From Escherichia coli (GTDB lineage: Bacteria > Pseudomonadota > Gammaproteobacteria > Enterobacterales > Enterobacteriaceae), in the NCBI RefSeq assembly GCF_029227855.1, contig NZ_CP074358.1: a stretch of 64,000 bases of DNA; one strand, written 5' to 3'. Shown piece by piece: positions 23,194 through 32,315 of the stretch (positions within the stretch are counted from its first letter, which is position 1; the number at the start of each line of letters is the position of its first letter). Made by a program: the position numbers and the translations under genes. The notes under the pieces are model-generated. The model had not been told where the DNA came from. It saw only the letters and a program-made list of their open reading frames with translations, and did no database searches.

Positions 23194-24171
23194 TCAGCGG
23201 GATTTGAAGAGTTTTTCCAGGTCATCCAGTGTGATGCCCAGTTTTTCAAGCAGGGCAAGTTTCTCCGCCATCTCCGGACTGACTTTTTCCGCAGGTGAAG
23301 GTGGCAACGGATTTTCCTTACTCTCATCATTCGGCGCTTTTAACCGGGGACGCCGGTAGTGAATACAGAAGAATTTTGTCCGCCCCCGCTGGATCTCCGT
23401 GTAATCAAGATATCCAATCTCGCGCAACTGCTCCATTGCCCGTCTGACCGTCTGGTTCTGGGAAAATACAGGAGACTTCAGATTGAGGCGTGCACGCAGC
23501 CGCGCCAGCGATATCGGTGCCGGATCCCGGGGCAGGCTCTCTATAAAGGTGTAGAGTGCCTGGGCGGACTCCCGTCGCTTCAGGGCATTAATCGCCTTAA
23601 GCTGGAGAAGGACTTTTCTGTCAAACTGGTACAGTTCAAACAGGCGGGGATCAGCCTGTAACTGAACAATATCCCGCTCAGTATCGTAGTAGGCTGACTG
23701 TACCAGATGGGTGATGTATTCCCGGGTGTGCTTCTCATCGGTACGGGAAAACGAGATCACGGTACCGGCAATGCGCTTCAGGGAAGGGCTGATGCGCTCA
23801 CGCAGCCTGCGGGATGACTGGCTTGAAGGTATACCACACAGTTTTGCAAACTCAACAAAAGGCAGTTCAACTTTGTCACCAATCACGTTATGGCGGGCAA
23901 AGGAATGAATGATCCCCACCCAGGTCTTGAAATCGTTATCCATATCCAGGCGGGGGCCGGTGATCTCAACCTTATCGAATCCCTCAGCACGGGCCAGGGA
24001 AAGACGAGTCAGCTCTTCCGTGGCATCAGTACGTGACAGTGTATTTTTTTTACTGTTCTTCAGTGATTTAAGGGTCGGTACAAAAACGCCCAGACGCATC
24101 AGCGCCACAGGTTGTACGGTGTTGTTATTGTTTGGTGTCAGTGTCACCAGCTCACCGGACGACTTATCCAC
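23194..24171 (-). CDS. repA: RepFIB replication initiator RepA
   Basis: 325-aa ORF recognised as the RepFIB initiator, flanked by iterons on both sides. Confidence 0.85.
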
Positions 24172-26074: not shown

Positions 26075-26691
26075 ACTCTGATTCTTCGCAATAGATTGCT
26101 CTGAATTAGATGCGCCTTCTCCATATAGACTAACAGTTCTATATTATTTTACCATCTTTAAATGTGTAAGAGTTTTCTGTTTTTTATTGGTGTTTATCTG
26201 TATTTTTTGTTTTAGGAACGTTTTTGTAAGAATTATCTTTTATATTTGAGGTGATATCTTATTGTGGTTGTTGTAATAGTTTAGAGTCGTAATAAATATG
26301 ATTGATCGCCACTTTAAATGAAGTTAATCTACTGGAGATGAAGTAACTTCATTAATGCGTCATAAAAATAAAAATTCCTGTTTTGGGAAATATGAATGTG
26401 TCTGTCCCCTCCTTCGGGAGGGTGTTTTTTATCTGGAAACTGGTTTCTGGTTCTGATTTTTCTTTTTGTATTATAGCGAGTTACGCATATTTACCAATCG
26501 ATGTCTGGCAAACAGAGTATGGCGATGGTGTGATTTGTGTTTATTGGTAAAAAAAACACCCCCGTAGTGGGGGTGTTGAAACTTCAACCTATGTACTCAT
26601 TATCCTTGGATGGATGAGTAGCGTGCGATATTGAATCATATTCAGCAGGAATAATAATATTCGCAAAAAAATGGATGTGCAAGGAAATTTT

Positions 26692-27245: not shown

Positions 27246-27400
27246 GCTCGTAAGCGGCCCTGACGGCCTGTCAATGCGGTACTGCCCTGTCGGGACTGCT
27301 CTACCCACATAAGTTTCTACATAGCTTGAAGCTGGATGGGGAGGTATTACGGCTTTAGCCGTAATACTTTCTTCGTCCTCGCAGCGCTGACAGTTTTCAG
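27246..27400 (+). repeat. Unassigned conserved element, copy B (paralogue of 394-585)
   Basis: Identical 23-nt core at 27246-27268, shared blocks after it, and a perfect 10-bp hairpin GTATTACGGC-TTTA-GCCGTAATAC. Confidence 0.5.
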
Positions 27401-27767
27401 GGATCAAATTTAGGTCCGCCATACACTCCGTAAAGACTCTGTCAGTTCACAGGTATTACCTAGTGAAGACGTATCATAAAATGAAAACTGTAGTTGGGTA
27501 GTTGCTCCCCCTCACGGCATGCAGGGGCTGAGGGGGAAAATTTCCTTATCTTGTTGTTGCTATTTCTGGCTTAGTCAGTTTTGAATTTTGCTTCCTAAGC
27601 AATAATCCCCTCACCGCAACAATCGTTCTTCTACACTAATAAGATCCGAAAAAAGGTAAAACCGGAACTTAATGAAATTACGGAGAATTTGACTGATATC
27701 CACTACCCCATTCTTCCGGCGTGCTATCTATACAGGCTGGTACATCTCATTTAGTCCGGAGGTTGTT

Positions 27768-28058
27768 ATGGGCGTCAAAATCACAGGTTTAGACAAAATG
27801 CAGAAACAGCTAAAAGAGGTTGAGAGAGCAACGGAGGCCTTAAACGGAAGTTATGATGTTCGTTTTGATGCTAACGATCCTAGCAGCATTGAGAACGCAA
27901 TTCAGGAAGCCTACTCCATGGTGGACGAACGCGCTTCTGGTTATGCCACTAATCCTATGGTCAGTCCATTAATCGAACACATGAAAGAAAATCTGCGCCA
28001 ACAGATTCTGGACAGTGCAGAACAACAAAGACAGGAGAGCGGACAGGATGGCGATTGA
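27768..28058 (+). CDS. Small hypothetical protein (96 aa), first gene of a coupled pair
   Basis: GGAGG 6 nt upstream of ATG 27768; stop overlaps the start of the TIR-like gene (ATGGCGATTGA). Confidence 0.6.
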   Translation: MGVKITGLDKMQKQLKEVERATEALNGSYDVRFDANDPSSIENAIQEAYSMVDERASGYATNPMVSPLIEHMKENLRQQILDSAEQQRQESGQDGD

Positions 28059-28947
28059 TATCTTTCAGTCACTTAAAAATTGCGTATTCGACCTTCAGCG
28101 CGCTGACGTTCAGAACTATCAGCAACCTCTTAAGCAATTGGCCCGGCTCTTGAACTCAGAGAATCTGCAGTCAGTTAATGCACATCTGACCCGCAATGTT
28201 GAACTTGATACCTTTCTGGCCAGGAGTGAAGATACTGAATCCAGCATGGCTGGTTCCGCTGTTCTACAGTGGCCTGATGAGCCCGCTGATATTTTGGGCC
28301 TGAAGTTGCTGCTGATCGAGAAAATGGCAGACGATAACAATTTTTCCTTTAATTTCTGTCATACATTTTTCTATGATCGAAACATTATTGAATCCATTCG
28401 AAAATTCACGTCGTCATTAGTTGCCCCGTTCGTGCGCGATTACCAGTTGTATGTGGAAAACCAACACGATCCTGAGCCTGCAGTGTTTCGGCCGGTTTCC
28501 CGAAAAATTTTTATTGTTCATGGCCATGATAATGATGCCCTTCAGTCTGTTGCCCGTTTTATATCCCGGATAGGTCTTGAGGAAATCATTCTTTCAGAAC
28601 GTCCTGACGGCTCCAGGACGATTATCGAGAAATTTGAAGCAGAGTCAGGGGATGTCAGTTTTGCCATCGTGCTGATGACGCCCGACGATAGCGGCAGTGC
28701 TCTGGCATCTGAAAGCACACGTCTCCGCGCACGCCAGAATGTCCTGTATGAGCTCGGATATTTCGCCGGGAAGCTTGGACGCGGGAAAGTACTTGTACTC
28801 AGGAAGGGAGATATCGAAATCCCTTCAGATCTTGCCGGGGTTCTCTATACCGAGCTTGATGAGCATGGTGGATGGAAACGCAAACTGCTGAGTGAGCTTG
28901 CGTATGCCGGTGTTCCTTTTGACAAGGATAAAGCATTAAGCGCCTGA
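28048..28947 (+). CDS. Protein with C-terminal TIR-like domain (CAP12/PycTIR-type, predicted nucleotide-binding TIR-like)
   Basis: C-terminal motifs FIVHGHDNDA ... LYELGYFAGKLG...VLVL recalled as hallmarks of the TIR-like family; N-terminal 150 aa unassigned. Confidence 0.65.
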   Translation: MAIDIFQSLKNCVFDLQRADVQNYQQPLKQLARLLNSENLQSVNAHLTRNVELDTFLARSEDTESSMAGSAVLQWPDEPADILGLKLLLIEKMADDNNFSFNFCHTFFYDRNIIESIRKFTSSLVAPFVRDYQLYVENQHDPEPAVFRPVSRKIFIVHGHDNDALQSVARFISRIGLEEIILSERPDGSRTIIEKFEAESGDVSFAIVLMTPDDSGSALASESTRLRARQNVLYELGYFAGKLGRGKVLVLRKGDIEIPSDLAGVLYTELDEHGGWKRKLLSELAYAGVPFDKDKALSA

Positions 28948-28968
28948 TCTCCTTCATTTAGTAAGAAA

Positions 28969-28987
28969 AAGGCCGCTAAGCGGCCTT
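28969..28987. terminator. Bidirectional rho-independent terminator between convergent operons
   Basis: Hairpin AAGGCCGC-TAA-GCGGCCTT flanked by an A-run upstream and a T-run downstream. Confidence 0.7.
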
Positions 28988-28996
28988 AATTTTTGG

Positions 28997-31222
28997 TCAG
29001 TCGTCATTTTCCAGCGCTGTTTTGAGCGCTTCCTGCTCCGGAGTCAGCTCGTTGCCGGACAGCATAACCTTCAACTTCTCTTCGACTGCTGGCCAGTCAT
29101 CAAAGAACGGACTGACCTGGTCACGCGCAATCCGGCGATATGCCCCTCGGTGGGAGCTGAAGACACTGGTCTGTAATCGTATCAACAGGTTAACAAGGCC
29201 TTCATCAGTGGTAGTAACTTCTCTGACCCATTGCTTCACGGTTTCACCTGAACTCATGTCTCTCCAGGCGTAGAGATACCCGAGAAGAGACTTGCGCAGG
29301 AGAAGCTGTTGCTGAAGTTCTGGTTGATTCATACGTTCCGCAAACCTGTCACGCAACCGTTCCGTAATATCGCGACTGAAAAGAGCATCTGAAGGCGAAG
29401 GTACTGCATTCTGAGCAAGTCCATGTTCCCAGATAAGATCCCGCATAAAATCGGCTATCCAGAACGGCGAAGCACCCGTAACGATCAGTTTTTCCATAAG
29501 CGTGATCGTTCTGGTCTCATCAATATCCTGCATATGCTTCAGCAGATGCCGTACAACCTCATTAATGGCCATTTCACGCAGGGAAAACCATGGGTTACGG
29601 ATACTGAAGCGAGTGCTCACCTCATCGGTGTGCTCGAAGAAAAAATGAACCAGTCCTGCGCACTCTTCGAAATTACGTTCTCTTATCAGGCCTGGAGTCA
29701 GTCTGCTCAGTATATGTTCAAACCAGGTTCCGGACAGACTGCCCACACTGTTGATTTTTGAGAGCAGCAATTCAGAAAGCTGCTGCTGTTTTTCCGATAC
29801 GCCAGCCTGTTCAAAAAGCTGTCTGAAGAATTCAGGTGGCAGAACATTCTGTGGTGAGGAGAAGGCAAAATAATATCGCCAGTGCGTCAGGCTGCTGAGT
29901 CGTTTACCGGTCGTCTGGATATGACGAAAATCCTCACTGACGGGCTCAAAAAGATTCAGATATTCATCATTATGTCCACTGATACCTGGGATCCAGTCTG
30001 CAAGTGTCAGAAACGAGTCTGCATTTGATGCCCTGAACGTCTTCATACATCTGATAAGCCCCTCCCGGAAGTCTGCTTTCTCTCCGTCAGAAAGCATACC
30101 CTGACCGGTTTCAATCACGGACCGTTCTGTCAGGTAATGCTCTGTCCAGTCATACAGAGCCGGGTTTGTCACCCGTATAAGCTGAAGCAGGCACAAATCA
30201 GGGAAATAAACAAAATCCCGCATCCCCGGATAAAGAAAAATCAGGGAATTAATGGCCTGATGGATTTCCCGTGGCGTCGAAAGTGCGGCACCATAGGTAT
30301 CAGTCACCGCGATGAGATCCCTTACCATTCCAGAGTCTGGCGGTTGATTATTAATTTGCTGATATAGAGCCTCAGCCCGCTGGCGAAATTCATTACGTAA
30401 ATCAAAGGCTTCAGGTCGGGGTAATTTAAAACTAAGCTGAATGATTTTCTGGAGATAACGGCTGCCATCTTCGATATTCAGCGCATGTTCAACGGCATGA
30501 GTGATAATCTGCCTGTCATAACAGAGAATATGGGTAAAGCGGGGCAGATCGGCTACTGCACGCACAAGCCTGAACACTTCCGCCACCTGGGATGGCTCCA
30601 GTCGGTCCAGATCATCCATGACAACAATGAACTTCAGATCCAGACTCACCAGTTGTCCTGCAATTTCAGCCCGAAGCTTTGTCGTGGTTTTCTGATCAAC
30701 AGCCAGACGGCTGTCTGAAAATACCTTTATTCCGCCTGCTATCCAGTTAATAATGCTGGAAAACTGTCCGATATATTGAACCAGTGGAAGGACGCGCGAT
30801 GAAGTATCCTGAGCATACTCAATCACTTTTTGAGCTTCCGGTGACAACAGATATTTACGCCAGAGCTTTTTGAAGCCCTTCGGGGGATAGCGTATTTCCA
30901 TTTCCTGCTGGATAACCGTGGCAACCGGAAGAAAGAGCGCTTCAACCGGACTGCCGCCACTCAGCCAGGGAGAAATATGCAGCACATGTGTGTGAGCATC
31001 TTTTTTCAGGGCAAGGTTTCTCAGGATCAGATTAAGGAGGCTTGTTTTACCCGATCCCCATGCACCTTCTATTCCGACAACATTTGAAGCCTCCAGAGGA
31101 AGAGTAAGGATGGAACGGGATATATTTTCTGCGATATTACCGAAACCGTATCGATCCTCAGGTACATCTTCAACTGCCGCATCAAGCCCTTTCTGGTTCC
31201 ACAGCTGCCTCAGTATCTTCAT
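28997..31222 (-). CDS. KAP-family P-loop NTPase
   Basis: 741-aa ORF with Walker A GIEGAWGSGKTSLLN and Walker B-like IVVMDDLDR, large helical C-terminal region. Confidence 0.7.
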   Translation of the reverse strand: MKILRQLWNQKGLDAAVEDVPEDRYGFGNIAENISRSILTLPLEASNVVGIEGAWGSGKTSLLNLILRNLALKKDAHTHVLHISPWLSGGSPVEALFLPVATVIQQEMEIRYPPKGFKKLWRKYLLSPEAQKVIEYAQDTSSRVLPLVQYIGQFSSIINWIAGGIKVFSDSRLAVDQKTTTKLRAEIAGQLVSLDLKFIVVMDDLDRLEPSQVAEVFRLVRAVADLPRFTHILCYDRQIITHAVEHALNIEDGSRYLQKIIQLSFKLPRPEAFDLRNEFRQRAEALYQQINNQPPDSGMVRDLIAVTDTYGAALSTPREIHQAINSLIFLYPGMRDFVYFPDLCLLQLIRVTNPALYDWTEHYLTERSVIETGQGMLSDGEKADFREGLIRCMKTFRASNADSFLTLADWIPGISGHNDEYLNLFEPVSEDFRHIQTTGKRLSSLTHWRYYFAFSSPQNVLPPEFFRQLFEQAGVSEKQQQLSELLLSKINSVGSLSGTWFEHILSRLTPGLIRERNFEECAGLVHFFFEHTDEVSTRFSIRNPWFSLREMAINEVVRHLLKHMQDIDETRTITLMEKLIVTGASPFWIADFMRDLIWEHGLAQNAVPSPSDALFSRDITERLRDRFAERMNQPELQQQLLLRKSLLGYLYAWRDMSSGETVKQWVREVTTTDEGLVNLLIRLQTSVFSSHRGAYRRIARDQVSPFFDDWPAVEEKLKVMLSGNELTPEQEALKTALENDD

Positions 31223-31223
31223 A

Positions 31224-32315
31224 TTACAGATCTCCGTACAGGCAGCGCAGCCCGGTCAGGGCCTCCGCCAGCGGGCCTTCTTGACACCGCGTGGCGAGCT
31301 CCCGGACCAGCGTCTCAAAGGCCTCCGCCGGCATAAAAATCCGCAGGCCGTCTATCCCGAAGAAGCCCTCCGGCGTGACGTTTCCGGGCGGGGAGAACAT
31401 CACTCGCTCCCCCTGGTGACCGTGCGTCAGGGCTTCCGGATGCCGGGCATACAGCGTGAACAGGCCCAGCAGTTCGGATAACGCTTCCCAGCCGTACGGC
31501 ACCACGAAGTCCTGGCCGGTGATCAGCAGGTGCAGACGGGGTGTGGTGTACCAGGCCCCCGGGCGTTCTCCGGGGTGCTGGCCGTCAACGCGGATCTCCA
31601 GGCGCAGCGTGCCGGCCTCAATGGTTTCCGTGACGGCAGAAATAACCGGGCGCAGCTCCTGTGCCAGCGTTCTTGCCTGTTCTGTGTTCCAGTCCAGGCC
31701 GCGCAGCATCAACGGGAAAACAGCTTTCAGCCGCGGCAGGGTGAAGATTTCTGCCAGCACCGCGTCCGGCACCTCCGCCAGGCCAAAACAGTCGCTCTCG
31801 AGCGGACGCAGGAGGTGTTCGGCATACATCTGATCCACCACGGGGCGCAGCGCTGCCCGGAAGGCTTCAAACTCTTCCGTCCAGTTTTTCCCGGCCAGGC
31901 GGAAAATCCCCTTCAGGTAGTGACCGTCCACAGGGCGATCGTGCTCCACCTGCCAGGCCAGCAGGTTGCCAGTGATGTCCAGCAGCGTGTCCAGGGCCGG
32001 GAGTGTGGCCAGCCTATTATGCCCGCGCAGGAAGGCCTCCCTGACGTGAACCAGGACAAAGCGCAGTTCGTCGCGGGAGAGCGCTGACGTGCCGAAGGTC
32101 TGGCCCAGAATGATATGCCGGTACAGCTGCCGGACCGTGGCCTCCGGATCGGCAATGAGCTGAAAATACCCGTCACCGGGCGCGACCGTTTTCAGGCCGT
32201 CATCGAGGAAGCGTTCGGCTAGGGCGTTGACCGAAGTATTTTCCCGACCGGCACGCGTTTTCAGCGCCTCGATAAGTTTTTTGTGAAAACGCAGGTTAAG
32301 CTGGCTTAGCATCAT
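31224..32315 (-). CDS. Protein with N-terminal ribbon-helix-helix domain and uncharacterised C-terminal domain
   Basis: N-terminus LSQLNLRFHKKLIEALKTRAGRENTSVNALAERFL fits the RHH pattern; stop is 1 nt from the KAP NTPase start; visibly GC-richer than neighbours. Confidence 0.6.
   Translation of the reverse strand: MMLSQLNLRFHKKLIEALKTRAGRENTSVNALAERFLDDGLKTVAPGDGYFQLIADPEATVRQLYRHIILGQTFGTSALSRDELRFVLVHVREAFLRGHNRLATLPALDTLLDITGNLLAWQVEHDRPVDGHYLKGIFRLAGKNWTEEFEAFRAALRPVVDQMYAEHLLRPLESDCFGLAEVPDAVLAEIFTLPRLKAVFPLMLRGLDWNTEQARTLAQELRPVISAVTETIEAGTLRLEIRVDGQHPGERPGAWYTTPRLHLLITGQDFVVPYGWEALSELLGLFTLYARHPEALTHGHQGERVMFSPPGNVTPEGFFGIDGLRIFMPAEAFETLVRELATRCQEGPLAEALTGLRCLYGDL

What the first reader, a model, noticed from the sequence alone, without database searches (positions are those of the whole stretch)
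27768..28987. Small protein + TIR-like protein pair with no signal-generating enzyme nearby
Seen: a 96-aa ORF with strong RBS whose stop overlaps the start of a 300-aa ORF (ATGGCGATTGA). The second protein carries C-terminal motifs FIVHGHD and LYELGYF that I recall as hallmarks of the TIR-like domain used by CBASS/Pycsar effectors; its N-terminal 150 aa has no recognisable motif. No cyclase, RT or SIR2/SLOG gene is adjacent. The pair is convergent with the KAP NTPase operon and shares its terminator. Inference: a TIR-type effector with an unknown sensor or regulator, possibly a new two-gene defence or toxin-antitoxin-like module, or one arm of a four-gene island.
Basis: partly seen in the sequence, partly recalled or inferred. 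Interest (0 to 1): 0.8.

Follow-up and report, generated by a model that had tools for sequence, protein, structure and literature searches.

The report
F-plasmid YuaX–YuaY TIR defence-like pair
These are the uncharacterised F-plasmid genes yuaX and yuaY, a widely conserved pair in which a small helical protein appears to dock onto the front half of a TIR-type NAD-destroying enzyme, which looks like a self-contained phage-defence or suicide module with a previously undescribed sensor.

Summary
A 96-aa ORF (27768-28058) overlaps a 299-aa ORF (28048-28947) through ATGGCGATTGA. The second protein has a C-terminal CAP12/Pycsar-type TIR domain (PF10137, E 8e-37). The two proteins are YuaX and YuaY of the F plasmid, and I found no paper on them.

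The pairing is not accidental. Of 57 full-length YuaY homologues across Proteobacteria and other phyla, 52 have a YuaX homologue directly upstream, 4 have it fused in frame, and 1 lacks it. No third gene is conserved, so no cyclase is involved. TIR homologues with other N-termini lack YuaX.

AlphaFold places YuaX against the YuaY N-domain as one confident helical unit (pTM 0.80), with no convincing match among solved structures. The same YuaX+N-domain unit is also found fused to a 2-TM tail, a HEPN domain, or a PDC-M14B-like tail.

Best reading: an autonomous two-gene abortive-infection or toxin-antitoxin-like module. YuaX plus the N-domain would sense or restrain, and the TIR domain would deplete NAD+. 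The trigger is unknown and nothing has been tested experimentally.

It is not CBASS, Pycsar or Thoeris, and it is not part of Pif. Only its TIR half matches PADLOC candidate PDC-S35. Verdict: a new variant of a known kind, of moderately high interest.

The parts
27758..27762 (+). Shine-Dalgarno GGAGG, 5 nt upstream of the yuaX ATG
   Evidence: Read directly from the sequence.
27768..28058 (+). yuaX: a 96-aa protein of the Pfam YuaX family (PF27363). It is predicted to be a three-helix bundle with an acidic C-terminal tail, and is the proposed regulatory or sensor subunit.
   Evidence: ORF. An exact match in the protein collection is named YUAX_ECOLI. PF27363:YuaX is precomputed. A homologue lies directly upstream of YuaY in 52 of 57 loci and is fused in 4. 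Helices in the AF2 model are 7-25, 38-59 and 66-90.
28048..28058 (+). The 11-nt overlap ATGGCGATTGA, containing the yuaY start and the yuaX stop. Translational coupling is inferred.
   Evidence: In related loci the small ORF ends within a few bases of the large ORF's start.
28048..28497 (+). yuaY N-terminal all-helical domain (residues 1-150). It has no known family and is the predicted docking partner of YuaX.
28504..28860 (+). yuaY CAP12/Pycsar-type TIR domain (residues 153-271; the ORF continues to the stop at 28947). It carries FIVHGHD (28510-28530), TPDD, and NVLYELGYF with the putative catalytic Glu235 (28750-28752). It is the proposed NAD+-degrading effector.
   Evidence: PF10137 at E 7.9e-37. 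PADLOC PDC-S35 at 2e-65, plus CBASS TIR effector and PycTIR models. PDB Cap12 and PycTIR matches, with the E of the FEFG motif aligned to E235. Foldseek best hits are TIR-STING 9lmq and 7un8. E235 is invariant in 25 homologues.
28969..28987 (.). Bidirectional terminator-like hairpin AAGGCCGC-TAA-GCGGCCTT, shared by yuaY (+) and pifA (-)
   Evidence: 8 pairs, 6 of them GC, with T-rich tails on both strands.

Best explanation
yuaX-yuaY is an autonomous, mobile two-gene conflict module of the abortive-infection or toxin-antitoxin-like kind.

Shown:
- The two genes are translationally overlapped, and are almost always adjacent or fused.
- No third gene is conserved with them.
- YuaY ends in a CAP12/Pycsar-clade TIR domain that retains the glutamate aligning with the TIR-STING active-site motif.
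- The YuaX+N-domain unit recurs with other cell-killing output domains.

Inferred:
- YuaX, a three-helix bundle, docks on the helical N-domain of YuaY to form one composite regulatory or sensor unit. In uninfected cells this unit would keep the TIR domain from self-associating.
- An unknown trigger changes this unit. Most likely it is a phage protein, or a phage-induced loss or displacement of YuaX.
- The TIR domains then oligomerise, as in TIR-STING and other PF10137 TIRs, and hydrolyse NAD+.
- This stops growth or kills the infected cell before phage release. On a plasmid it could also penalise plasmid loss.
For: 1. Identity of the effector.
- PF10137 at E 7.9e-37.
- The nearest solved relatives by sequence and fold are the NADases TIR-STING/Cap12 and PycTIR.
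- E235 is invariant and aligns with the Glu of the TIR-STING FEFG motif.
- A 2026 preprint (10.64898/2026.04.30.722052) reports that CAP12/Pycsar-clade TIRs become active NADases by oligomerisation. It also reports that one lacking a regulatory domain is spontaneously toxic in E. coli.

2. Obligate pairing.
- Of 57 full-length homologues, 52 have YuaX directly upstream, 4 are in-frame YuaX-YuaY fusions, and 1 lacks it.
- In the reverse test seeded on YuaX in IMG/VR, 7 of 8 loci have YuaY directly downstream.
- The 23 TIR-only matches in the same scan, which align only from about residue 111-153 on and so have other N-termini, all lack YuaX.

3. Physical association with the N-domain.
- Natural fusions exist as dozens of 90%-identity clusters of about 404 aa.
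- AF2 of YuaX plus residues 1-150 gives pLDDT 90.7 and pTM 0.80, against pTM 0.47 for YuaY alone.
- YuaX divergence tracks N-domain divergence (partial r 0.50) and not TIR divergence (partial r 0.17).

4. Autonomy. The next most common neighbour family occurs in only 5 of 57 loci.

5. Swappable outputs on the same YuaX+N-domain unit.
- Two TM helices: P0266, P0291, P0394 and others.
- A Hypoth_Ymh HEPN domain: P0311, PF09509 at 1.5e-32.
- A PDC-M14B-like tail: P0369, P0410, P0429 and others.

6. Context.
- In the window it lies next to PifA.
- About half of 19 large neighbours sampled elsewhere hit PADLOC models, including a type I RM methylase, PDC-S37/Hhe, Mokosh-like, SIR2-like and E1-E2/JAB.
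- In IMG/VR contigs it sits next to integrases and tail or terminase genes.

7. The sensor half evolves faster than the effector. Mean pairwise identity is 0.50 for YuaX and 0.51 for the N-domain, against 0.68 for TIR.
Against: - No experiment exists. NADase activity, toxicity, YuaX-YuaY binding and phage protection are all untested.
- The docking inference rests on pTM and pLDDT of a linked construct. I could not inspect PAE or contacts.
- The defence-island evidence is a hand-picked sample of large neighbours with no background rate.
- The composite helical unit has no informative structural relative, so 'sensor' is a role assigned from architecture alone.
- F has been studied for decades, and no exclusion phenotype has been assigned to these genes in the papers I could search.
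- In L097 and L098 an IS21 element truncates yuaX while a full-length yuaY remains downstream. Either YuaY is not toxic without YuaX, or it is simply no longer expressed.
Confidence: 0.6

Rival explanations
1. Classical type II toxin-antitoxin addiction module. YuaX would be a labile antitoxin that neutralises the YuaY NADase. Loss of the plasmid, or shut-off of host expression, would free the toxin. The main role would be plasmid or island maintenance rather than phage sensing.
For: - A small upstream gene overlaps a larger gene that encodes a potentially toxic enzyme.
- The pair is carried on plasmids next to ccdAB and replication modules in related plasmids.
- It is frequent on mobile elements.
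- The predicted tight YuaX:YuaY contact fits neutralisation.
Against: - In-frame YuaX-YuaY fusions are common. This fits poorly with an antitoxin that must be degraded away from its toxin.
- YuaX has no detectable DNA-binding domain typical of type II antitoxins; no Pfam or NCBIfam hit.
- YuaX co-varies with the non-catalytic N-domain, not with the TIR domain it would have to inhibit.
- yuaX truncated by IS21 coexists with intact yuaY, although polarity could explain this.
- The two readings are not exclusive, because many TA-like modules act in defence.
Confidence: 0.2
2. Orphan effector of a nucleotide second-messenger system of the CBASS or Pycsar type. YuaX plus the N-domain would bind a cyclic nucleotide made by a cyclase encoded elsewhere.
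For: The TIR domain belongs to the clade used by CBASS Cap12 and Pycsar PycTIR effectors. Those effectors have the same overall layout of a sensor domain plus a TIR domain.
Against: - No cyclase is present in the window or conserved in any of 57 loci.
- The NCBIfam Cap12 models score 42 and 36 bits against a cut-off of 450.
- The N-domain and YuaX match no STING, SAVED, CARF or cNMP-binding family.
- From my knowledge of these families, known CBASS and Pycsar effectors are encoded in an operon with their cyclase.
Confidence: 0.05
3. Not a conflict system. It would be a housekeeping or regulatory nucleotide- or NAD-processing enzyme with a small accessory subunit, for example a nucleosidase or deoxyribosyltransferase-like activity used by the plasmid or host.
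For: - TIR-like folds are related to nucleoside 2-deoxyribosyltransferases, which appear among weak fold hits (7o62).
- Databases annotate the protein only as 'nucleotide-binding protein'.
- No phenotype is known.
Against: - The distribution is patchy and mobile, with unrelated neighbours in nearly every genome.
- It is carried on plasmids and prophages and next to defence genes.
- The TIR domain is replaced by membrane or HEPN outputs on the same N-terminal unit. That is typical of cell-killing effectors, not of metabolism.
Confidence: 0.1
4. A component of the F-plasmid Pif (T7 exclusion) system, that is, a four-gene island pifC-pifA plus yuaXY working together.
For: - The pair is convergent with pifA and shares a terminator hairpin.
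- It occurs together with pifA in many IncF plasmids and in the Erwinia locus L002.
Against: - The genes lie in opposite transcription units.
- Of the 57 homologous loci, 55 lack any PifA or PifC homologue next to the pair.
- Many E. coli plasmids match only the first 259 nt of the query, upstream of yuaX, and so lack the pair.
Confidence: 0.03

Closest known systems
CBASS Cap12 (TIR-STING, e.g. Sphingobacterium faecium SfSTING, PDB 7un8; 9lmq)
   Same: - The same TIR clade (PF10137), and the best sequence and fold match among solved structures.
- The conserved DD and NV.(F/Y)E.G(Y/L)F motifs, including the glutamate.
- The layout of a sensor domain plus a TIR domain.
- Activation by sensor-driven TIR oligomerisation leading to NAD+ depletion is the model I borrow.
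   Different: - No STING domain and no CD-NTase.
- The sensor is N-terminal, all-helical and split over two polypeptides.
- NCBIfam Cap12 scores are 42 and 36 bits against a cut-off of 450.
Pycsar effector PycTIR (PDB 8jsj)
   Same: A C-terminal PF10137 TIR domain in a protein of about 300 aa. The PADLOC PycTIR model hits at 1e-9 and the PDB sequence at 0.002.
   Different: No adjacent pyrimidine cyclase, no similarity outside the TIR domain, and an obligatory small partner protein.
PADLOC candidate system PDC-S35 (single-gene, untested)
   Same: YuaY hits all five PDC-S35 models, at best 2.3e-65. PADLOC would therefore probably label YuaY this way.
   Different: - The match covers only YuaY residues about 102/145-295, that is the TIR half. 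The N-terminal parts of the models are unmatched.
- PDC-S35 is defined as one gene.
- YuaX and the N-domain match nothing in PADLOC even at E 10.
- I found no paper that mentions PDC-S35.
Fused or split toxin-antitoxin defence proteins such as CapRel-SJ46. This is an analogy from my own knowledge and was not tested here.
   Same: A toxic enzymatic domain held in check by a small helical 'antitoxin-like' element. That element is a separate gene in some lineages and fused in others, and it doubles as the phage sensor.
   Different: An unrelated fold and chemistry (tRNA pyrophosphorylation versus a predicted NADase). Here the small element is N-terminal or upstream, and is predicted to bind a dedicated adaptor domain rather than the enzyme itself.
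Thoeris (ThsB TIR + ThsA)
   Same: A bacterial TIR protein in a small defence operon.
   Different: - In Thoeris the TIR makes a signal for a separate effector gene.
- Here no effector gene accompanies the pair.
- The TIR family differs (PF10137, not PF08937).
- The TIR position can be taken by terminal effectors (2-TM, HEPN), so TIR is the output here, not the signal generator.

Membership tests
Pfam CAP12-PCTIR_TIR (PF10137) TIR clade | Significant match to the family HMM over the whole domain | tested here: met
   E 7.9e-37; residues 153-271 against model positions 1-118 of 119.
Pfam CAP12-PCTIR_TIR (PF10137) TIR clade | Conserved glutamate of the TIR active-site motif | tested here: met
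   E235 is invariant in 25 homologues. It aligns with the E of FEFG in Cap12 chains 9lmq and 7un8. That this Glu is catalytic comes from the literature and my memory, and was not assayed.
Pfam CAP12-PCTIR_TIR (PF10137) TIR clade | NAD+ hydrolase activity | not testable with these tools
   Needs an enzyme assay.
CBASS (Cap12 effector) | CD-NTase cyclase encoded in the same operon | tested here: not met
   None in the window. No conserved neighbour in 57 loci.
CBASS (Cap12 effector) | STING or SAVED nucleotide-sensing domain; score above the NCBIfam Cap12 cut-off | tested here: not met
   NF050171 scores 42 bits and NF050172 scores 36 bits, against a cut-off of 450, and both match the TIR region only. 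There is no Pfam domain in residues 1-150.
Pycsar (PycTIR effector) | Adjacent PycC pyrimidine cyclase | tested here: not met
Thoeris | ThsB-type TIR plus a ThsA (SIR2/SLOG, Macro or TM) effector gene in the operon | tested here: not met
   No ThsA or ThsB PADLOC hit for the pair or its window neighbours. No conserved partner other than YuaX.
PADLOC PDC-S35 candidate | Match to the PDC-S35 HMMs | tested here: met
   Five models hit, at 2.3e-65 to 4.6e-42, but only over the C-terminal half of YuaY and the C-terminal 55-75% of each model.
PADLOC PDC-S35 candidate | Single-gene system | tested here: not met
   YuaX is adjacent or fused in 56 of 57 loci.
Pfam YuaX family (PF27363) | Match to the family HMM | tested here: inconclusive
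   The Pfam-A copy behind profile_search lacks this family; its only hit was DUF3801 at E 0.014. The precomputed annotation gives PF27363 for the 94 hits with E <= 3e-11 (two weak fragmentary hits lack it) and names the family YuaX. The exact sequence is named YUAX_ECOLI.
Type II toxin-antitoxin module | Small adjacent gene whose product binds the toxin | tested here: inconclusive
   Adjacency and overlap are shown. Binding is predicted only from AF2 of a linked construct, and to the N-domain rather than the TIR domain.
Type II toxin-antitoxin module | Antitoxin with a DNA-binding domain that autoregulates the operon, and proteolytic lability | tested here: not met
   The DNA-binding part was tested: no HTH, RHH or AbrB family was detected in YuaX, and the model is a plain three-helix bundle. 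Lability cannot be tested here. Frequent fusions argue against it.
Pif (F-plasmid T7 exclusion) system | Co-inheritance with pifA and pifC | tested here: not met
   Only the window and L002 have PifA next to the pair. The other 55 loci do not.

The most novel reading that the evidence does not exclude
YuaX plus the YuaY N-domain would be a previously unrecognised, widespread family of two-part phage-sensing modules, with 587 representative clusters at 50% identity. It can drive at least four different suicide outputs: TIR NADase, 2-TM, HEPN RNase and a PDC-M14B-like tail. Its F-plasmid member would be a second, overlooked phage-exclusion system sitting beside PifA. Some phages would carry solo YuaX homologues as antidotes or decoys (L090).
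Probability: 0.3. Interest if true: 0.78.

Novelty: new variant of a known kind. Interest (0 to 1): 0.62.

Why it matters
- Reach. The genes sit on F itself and on about 1,200 IncF-type plasmids of E. coli and Klebsiella. The full pair is in 232 of 5,426 complete E. coli genomes. A functional NADase suicide module there would affect phage therapy and typing, plasmid stability, and the interpretation of F-mediated phage exclusion, which is classically attributed to PifA alone.
- Mechanism. It offers a TIR effector of the CBASS/Pycsar clade that works without any second messenger. Instead it is controlled by a new split helical unit that also drives membrane, HEPN and other outputs. Finding its trigger would define a new sensing principle.
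- Practical. The results give an easy annotation rule: PADLOC's single-gene candidate PDC-S35 hit on these proteins should be read as a two-gene system.

Tried and rejected
Literature
- Searches for PDC-S35, PF27363, yuaX/yuaY and pifB found nothing relevant. Hits were author initials, an anaesthesia acronym, or Wolbachia PifA/B.
- I recall from memory an old genetic locus 'pifB' placed downstream of pifA. I could not verify this. No sizeable ORF exists downstream of pifA on its strand.

Family searches
- Pfam, NCBIfam, PADLOC and PHROGs searches of YuaX and of YuaY 1-150 found no informative family.
- The DUF3801 hit (E 0.014) was rejected as chance.

Structure searches
- Foldseek against the PDB with full-length YuaY recognised only the TIR half.
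- BFVD gave nothing.

Other checks
- Phage genome collection: only TIR-domain-level matches, and no full pair.
- Promoter scan: no sigma-70 consensus on the + strand upstream of yuaX, so the promoter is unresolved.
- Natural knock-outs of yuaX are uninformative about toxicity. The cases found are contig ends, remnants whose yuaY has also been lost, or an IS21 insertion that is also polar on yuaY.

Readings rejected
- A CBASS, Pycsar or Thoeris reading (no cyclase or ThsA).
- A four-gene island with pifCA.
- TIR as a signal generator, because the same position is filled by terminal effectors in relatives.
Full report
**1. What is in the sequence**

The window is an IncF (F-like) plasmid segment.
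- It carries a 325-aa ORF at 23194-24171 whose sequence I recognise as the RepFIB initiator. That assignment is from memory, and NCBIfam gave no hit.
- It carries a tyrosine recombinase.
- It carries pifA at 28997-31222 on the minus strand (PADLOC PifA, E 2.9e-290).
- It carries the 363-aa gene at the position of pifC at 31224-32315.

The reported pair is exactly as described.
- The 96-aa ORF runs 27768-28058, with a GGAGG 5 nt before its ATG.
- The second ORF runs 28048-28947 and encodes 299 aa.
- The two overlap through ATGGCGATTGA.
- FIVHGHD is residues 155-161 and LYELGYF is residues 233-239.
- A hairpin at 28969-28987 scores as a terminator in both directions, between yuaY and the convergent pifA.

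An exact-sequence look-up names the proteins YuaX and YuaY, which are Swiss-Prot 'uncharacterized protein' entries. Current RefSeq annotation calls them 'YuaX family protein' and 'TIR domain-containing protein'. Pfam has a YuaX family, PF27363.

**2. How common it is**

- DNA related to the locus is in 1243 PLSDB plasmids, almost all Klebsiella (607) or Escherichia (564). Of these, 356 hold most of the query.
- Among complete E. coli genomes, 588 of 5426 have some match and 232 have the full pair. Of 616 matching places, 595 are on plasmids.

**3. The effector**

- YuaY residues 153-271 match PF10137 (CAP12/Pycsar effector TIR) at 7.9e-37 over the whole model.
- PADLOC gives PDC-S35 (an untested single-gene candidate) at 2e-65, and weaker hits to CBASS TIR effectors and PycTIR, all confined to the C-terminal half.
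- NCBIfam Cap12 models score 42 and 36 bits against a cut-off of 450.
- A profile of 25 homologues finds only Cap12 (9lmq, 7un8) and PycTIR (8jsj) among PDB sequences. The DD motif and the glutamate of N-V-x-(F/Y)-E-x-G align with them.
- E235 is invariant.
- The AF2 model of YuaY has pLDDT 78 and pTM 0.47, with a helical N-domain, a disordered linker at 141-149 and an alpha/beta TIR domain. It matches TIR-STING best in the PDB.
- A 2026 preprint reports that TIRs of this clade become NADases by oligomerisation. It also reports that one without a regulatory domain is spontaneously toxic in E. coli.

I therefore take NAD+ hydrolysis after self-association as the likely output. This is an inference, not a demonstration.

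**4. The pairing is obligate, and it is tied to the N-domain**

About 300-aa proteins aligning with YuaY end to end at 45-55% identity occur in many groups. These include Pseudomonas, Vibrio, Agrobacterium, Bradyrhizobium, Bordetella, Gemmatimonadetes and Myxococcales MAGs, and others.

In the 57 full-length loci from one-genome-per-species contigs:
- 52 have a YuaX homologue ending at or overlapping the YuaY start (phmmer E 1e-15 to 1e-56);
- 4 encode YuaX and YuaY as one ORF of about 404 aa (L047, L050, L052, L063);
- 1 (L048) lacks YuaX and looks like a truncated fusion.

The 23 loci that match only from about residue 111-153 on, and so have other N-termini, have no YuaX.

Seeding the search on YuaX instead, in IMG/VR, 7 of 8 loci have YuaY directly downstream.

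Fused forms are numerous, forming dozens of clusters carrying PF27363+PF10137.

Clustering all neighbouring ORFs finds no third conserved gene. The next family is present in 5 of 57 loci. There is therefore no cyclase, and no link to pifCA outside enterobacterial plasmids and the Erwinia locus.

**5. YuaX and the N-domain look like one unit**

I made a paired alignment of 46 natural pairs and fusions, using YuaX plus YuaY residues 1-150. I predicted the window's two parts joined as in the natural fusions.
- Mean pLDDT is 90.7 and pTM is 0.80. All five models score 88.5 or higher, and only the junction is of low confidence.
- For two units joined by a floppy linker, a pTM this high implies a confidently placed interface. 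I could not inspect PAE, so this is indirect.
- Across 52 pairs, YuaX and the N-domain diverge equally fast (mean identity 0.50 and 0.51), while TIR is slower (0.68).
- YuaX divergence correlates with the N-domain after controlling for TIR (partial r 0.50), but hardly with TIR after controlling for the N-domain (0.17). The comparisons are not phylogenetically independent.
- It has no family match in Pfam, NCBIfam, PADLOC or PHROGs.

**6. Swappable outputs**

A YuaX profile finds 587 representative clusters among 1.84 billion proteins. Some longer members keep YuaX plus the N-domain but end differently.
- Two predicted TM helices: P0266, P0291, P0394 from Bradyrhizobium isolates, P0395 and P0396.
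- A Hypoth_Ymh/TIGR02391 HEPN domain: P0311, with PF09509 at 1.5e-32 and also PADLOC Aga_HEPN and PD-Lambda-3_B. It sits on an element with ParA/ParB and an integrase.
- A shared tail resembling PADLOC candidate PDC-M14B: P0369, P0410, P0429, P0442, P0445 and P0450. P0382 joins YuaX to a different middle region and the same kind of tail.

A constant N-terminal unit with interchangeable cell-damaging C-termini is the usual architecture of abortive-infection proteins. It indicates that TIR is the terminal effector here, not a signal generator.

**7. Context**

- In the window the pair abuts PifA.
- Of 19 large neighbours sampled elsewhere, about half hit PADLOC models at E < 1e-5. These include a type I RM methylase, PDC-S37/Hhe, Mokosh-like helicases, a SIR2/STALD-like protein, E1-E2/JAB and a PD-T4-6-like kinase.
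- This sample was hand-picked and has no background control.
- In IMG/VR contigs the pair lies beside integrases, tail genes and a small terminase.

**8. Interpretation**

The best-supported reading is an autonomous two-gene module of the abortive-infection or toxin-antitoxin-like kind.
- YuaX and the N-domain would form a restraining or sensing unit.
- An unknown trigger would release TIR self-association.
- NAD+ would then be depleted.

A plain addiction-type TA reading is the main rival. The frequent fusions, the lack of a DNA-binding antitoxin domain, and the association of YuaX with the non-catalytic domain all weaken it. The two readings overlap, however.

An orphan CBASS or Pycsar effector, a metabolic enzyme, and a Pif component are each poorly supported.

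**9. Limits**

- No activity, binding, toxicity or phage phenotype has been measured.
- The trigger is unknown.
- The promoter was not found.
- Natural yuaX disruptions were uninformative.
- The paper library holds nothing on these genes. That does not exclude work in journals it does not cover.

**10. Verdict**

This is not a member of CBASS, Pycsar or Thoeris. It is a new variant of TIR-effector defence-like systems, with a novel split sensor, carried on the F plasmid.

Noticed in passing
L090 3959-4285 (+) (IMG/VR UViG 3300035696_002907): A solo YuaX homologue of 108 aa (HMM E 4.5e-26) with no YuaY. It lies on the opposite strand between a phage portal-like gene and a large-terminase-like gene. 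It could be a phage-borne antidote or decoy against YuaXY-type systems, or just a remnant.
   Followed up: partly
window 26555-26646 (-): A full-length match to the Rfam sRNA family UptR (RF02568): 124.8 bits against a gathering score of 100, E 1.4e-21. It lies in the mostly non-coding stretch about 1.1 kb upstream of yuaX.
   Followed up: no
L097 2501-5252 and L098 2206-4957: In some IncFII plasmids an IS21-family element (IstA/IstB) is inserted in the 3' part of yuaX. This leaves an 83-aa truncated product, with a full-length 299-aa yuaY about 2 kb downstream. It is a natural yuaX-disrupted, yuaY-intact state, but the insertion is probably polar on yuaY.
   Followed up: partly
L094-L096 2501-2671 (Cronobacter chromosomes): A 56-aa YuaX remnant is followed by a gene for a YobI-ATPase-domain protein of more than 1200 aa instead of yuaY, next to umuDC-like genes. 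This suggests gene turnover at a variable (defence?) hotspot.
   Followed up: no
P0369, P0410, P0429, P0442, P0445, P0450 (C-terminal ~120 aa): The third output type fused to YuaX+N-domain has a conserved 'INIHNSTIGAVQTG' stretch followed by helices, and weakly matches PADLOC PDC-M14B. From memory the motif resembles short amyloid-signalling or RHIM-like motifs. This was not tested.
   Followed up: no
L063 872-5547 (+), upstream of the fused YuaX-YuaY gene: Three co-oriented genes lie just upstream. One is an MBL/LmuA-like protein, one is an E1-E2/JAB fusion protein (PADLOC E 6e-25), and one is a 399-aa protein with no PADLOC hit. They look like a separate ubiquitin-like conjugation defence operon adjacent to the pair.
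   Followed up: no
window 27400-27658 versus many E. coli plasmids (hits H36-H40): Many IncF plasmids match only the first 259 nt of the query and then diverge. The yuaXY-pif segment therefore appears to be a replaceable cassette with a recurrent breakpoint near window position 27658.
   Followed up: no
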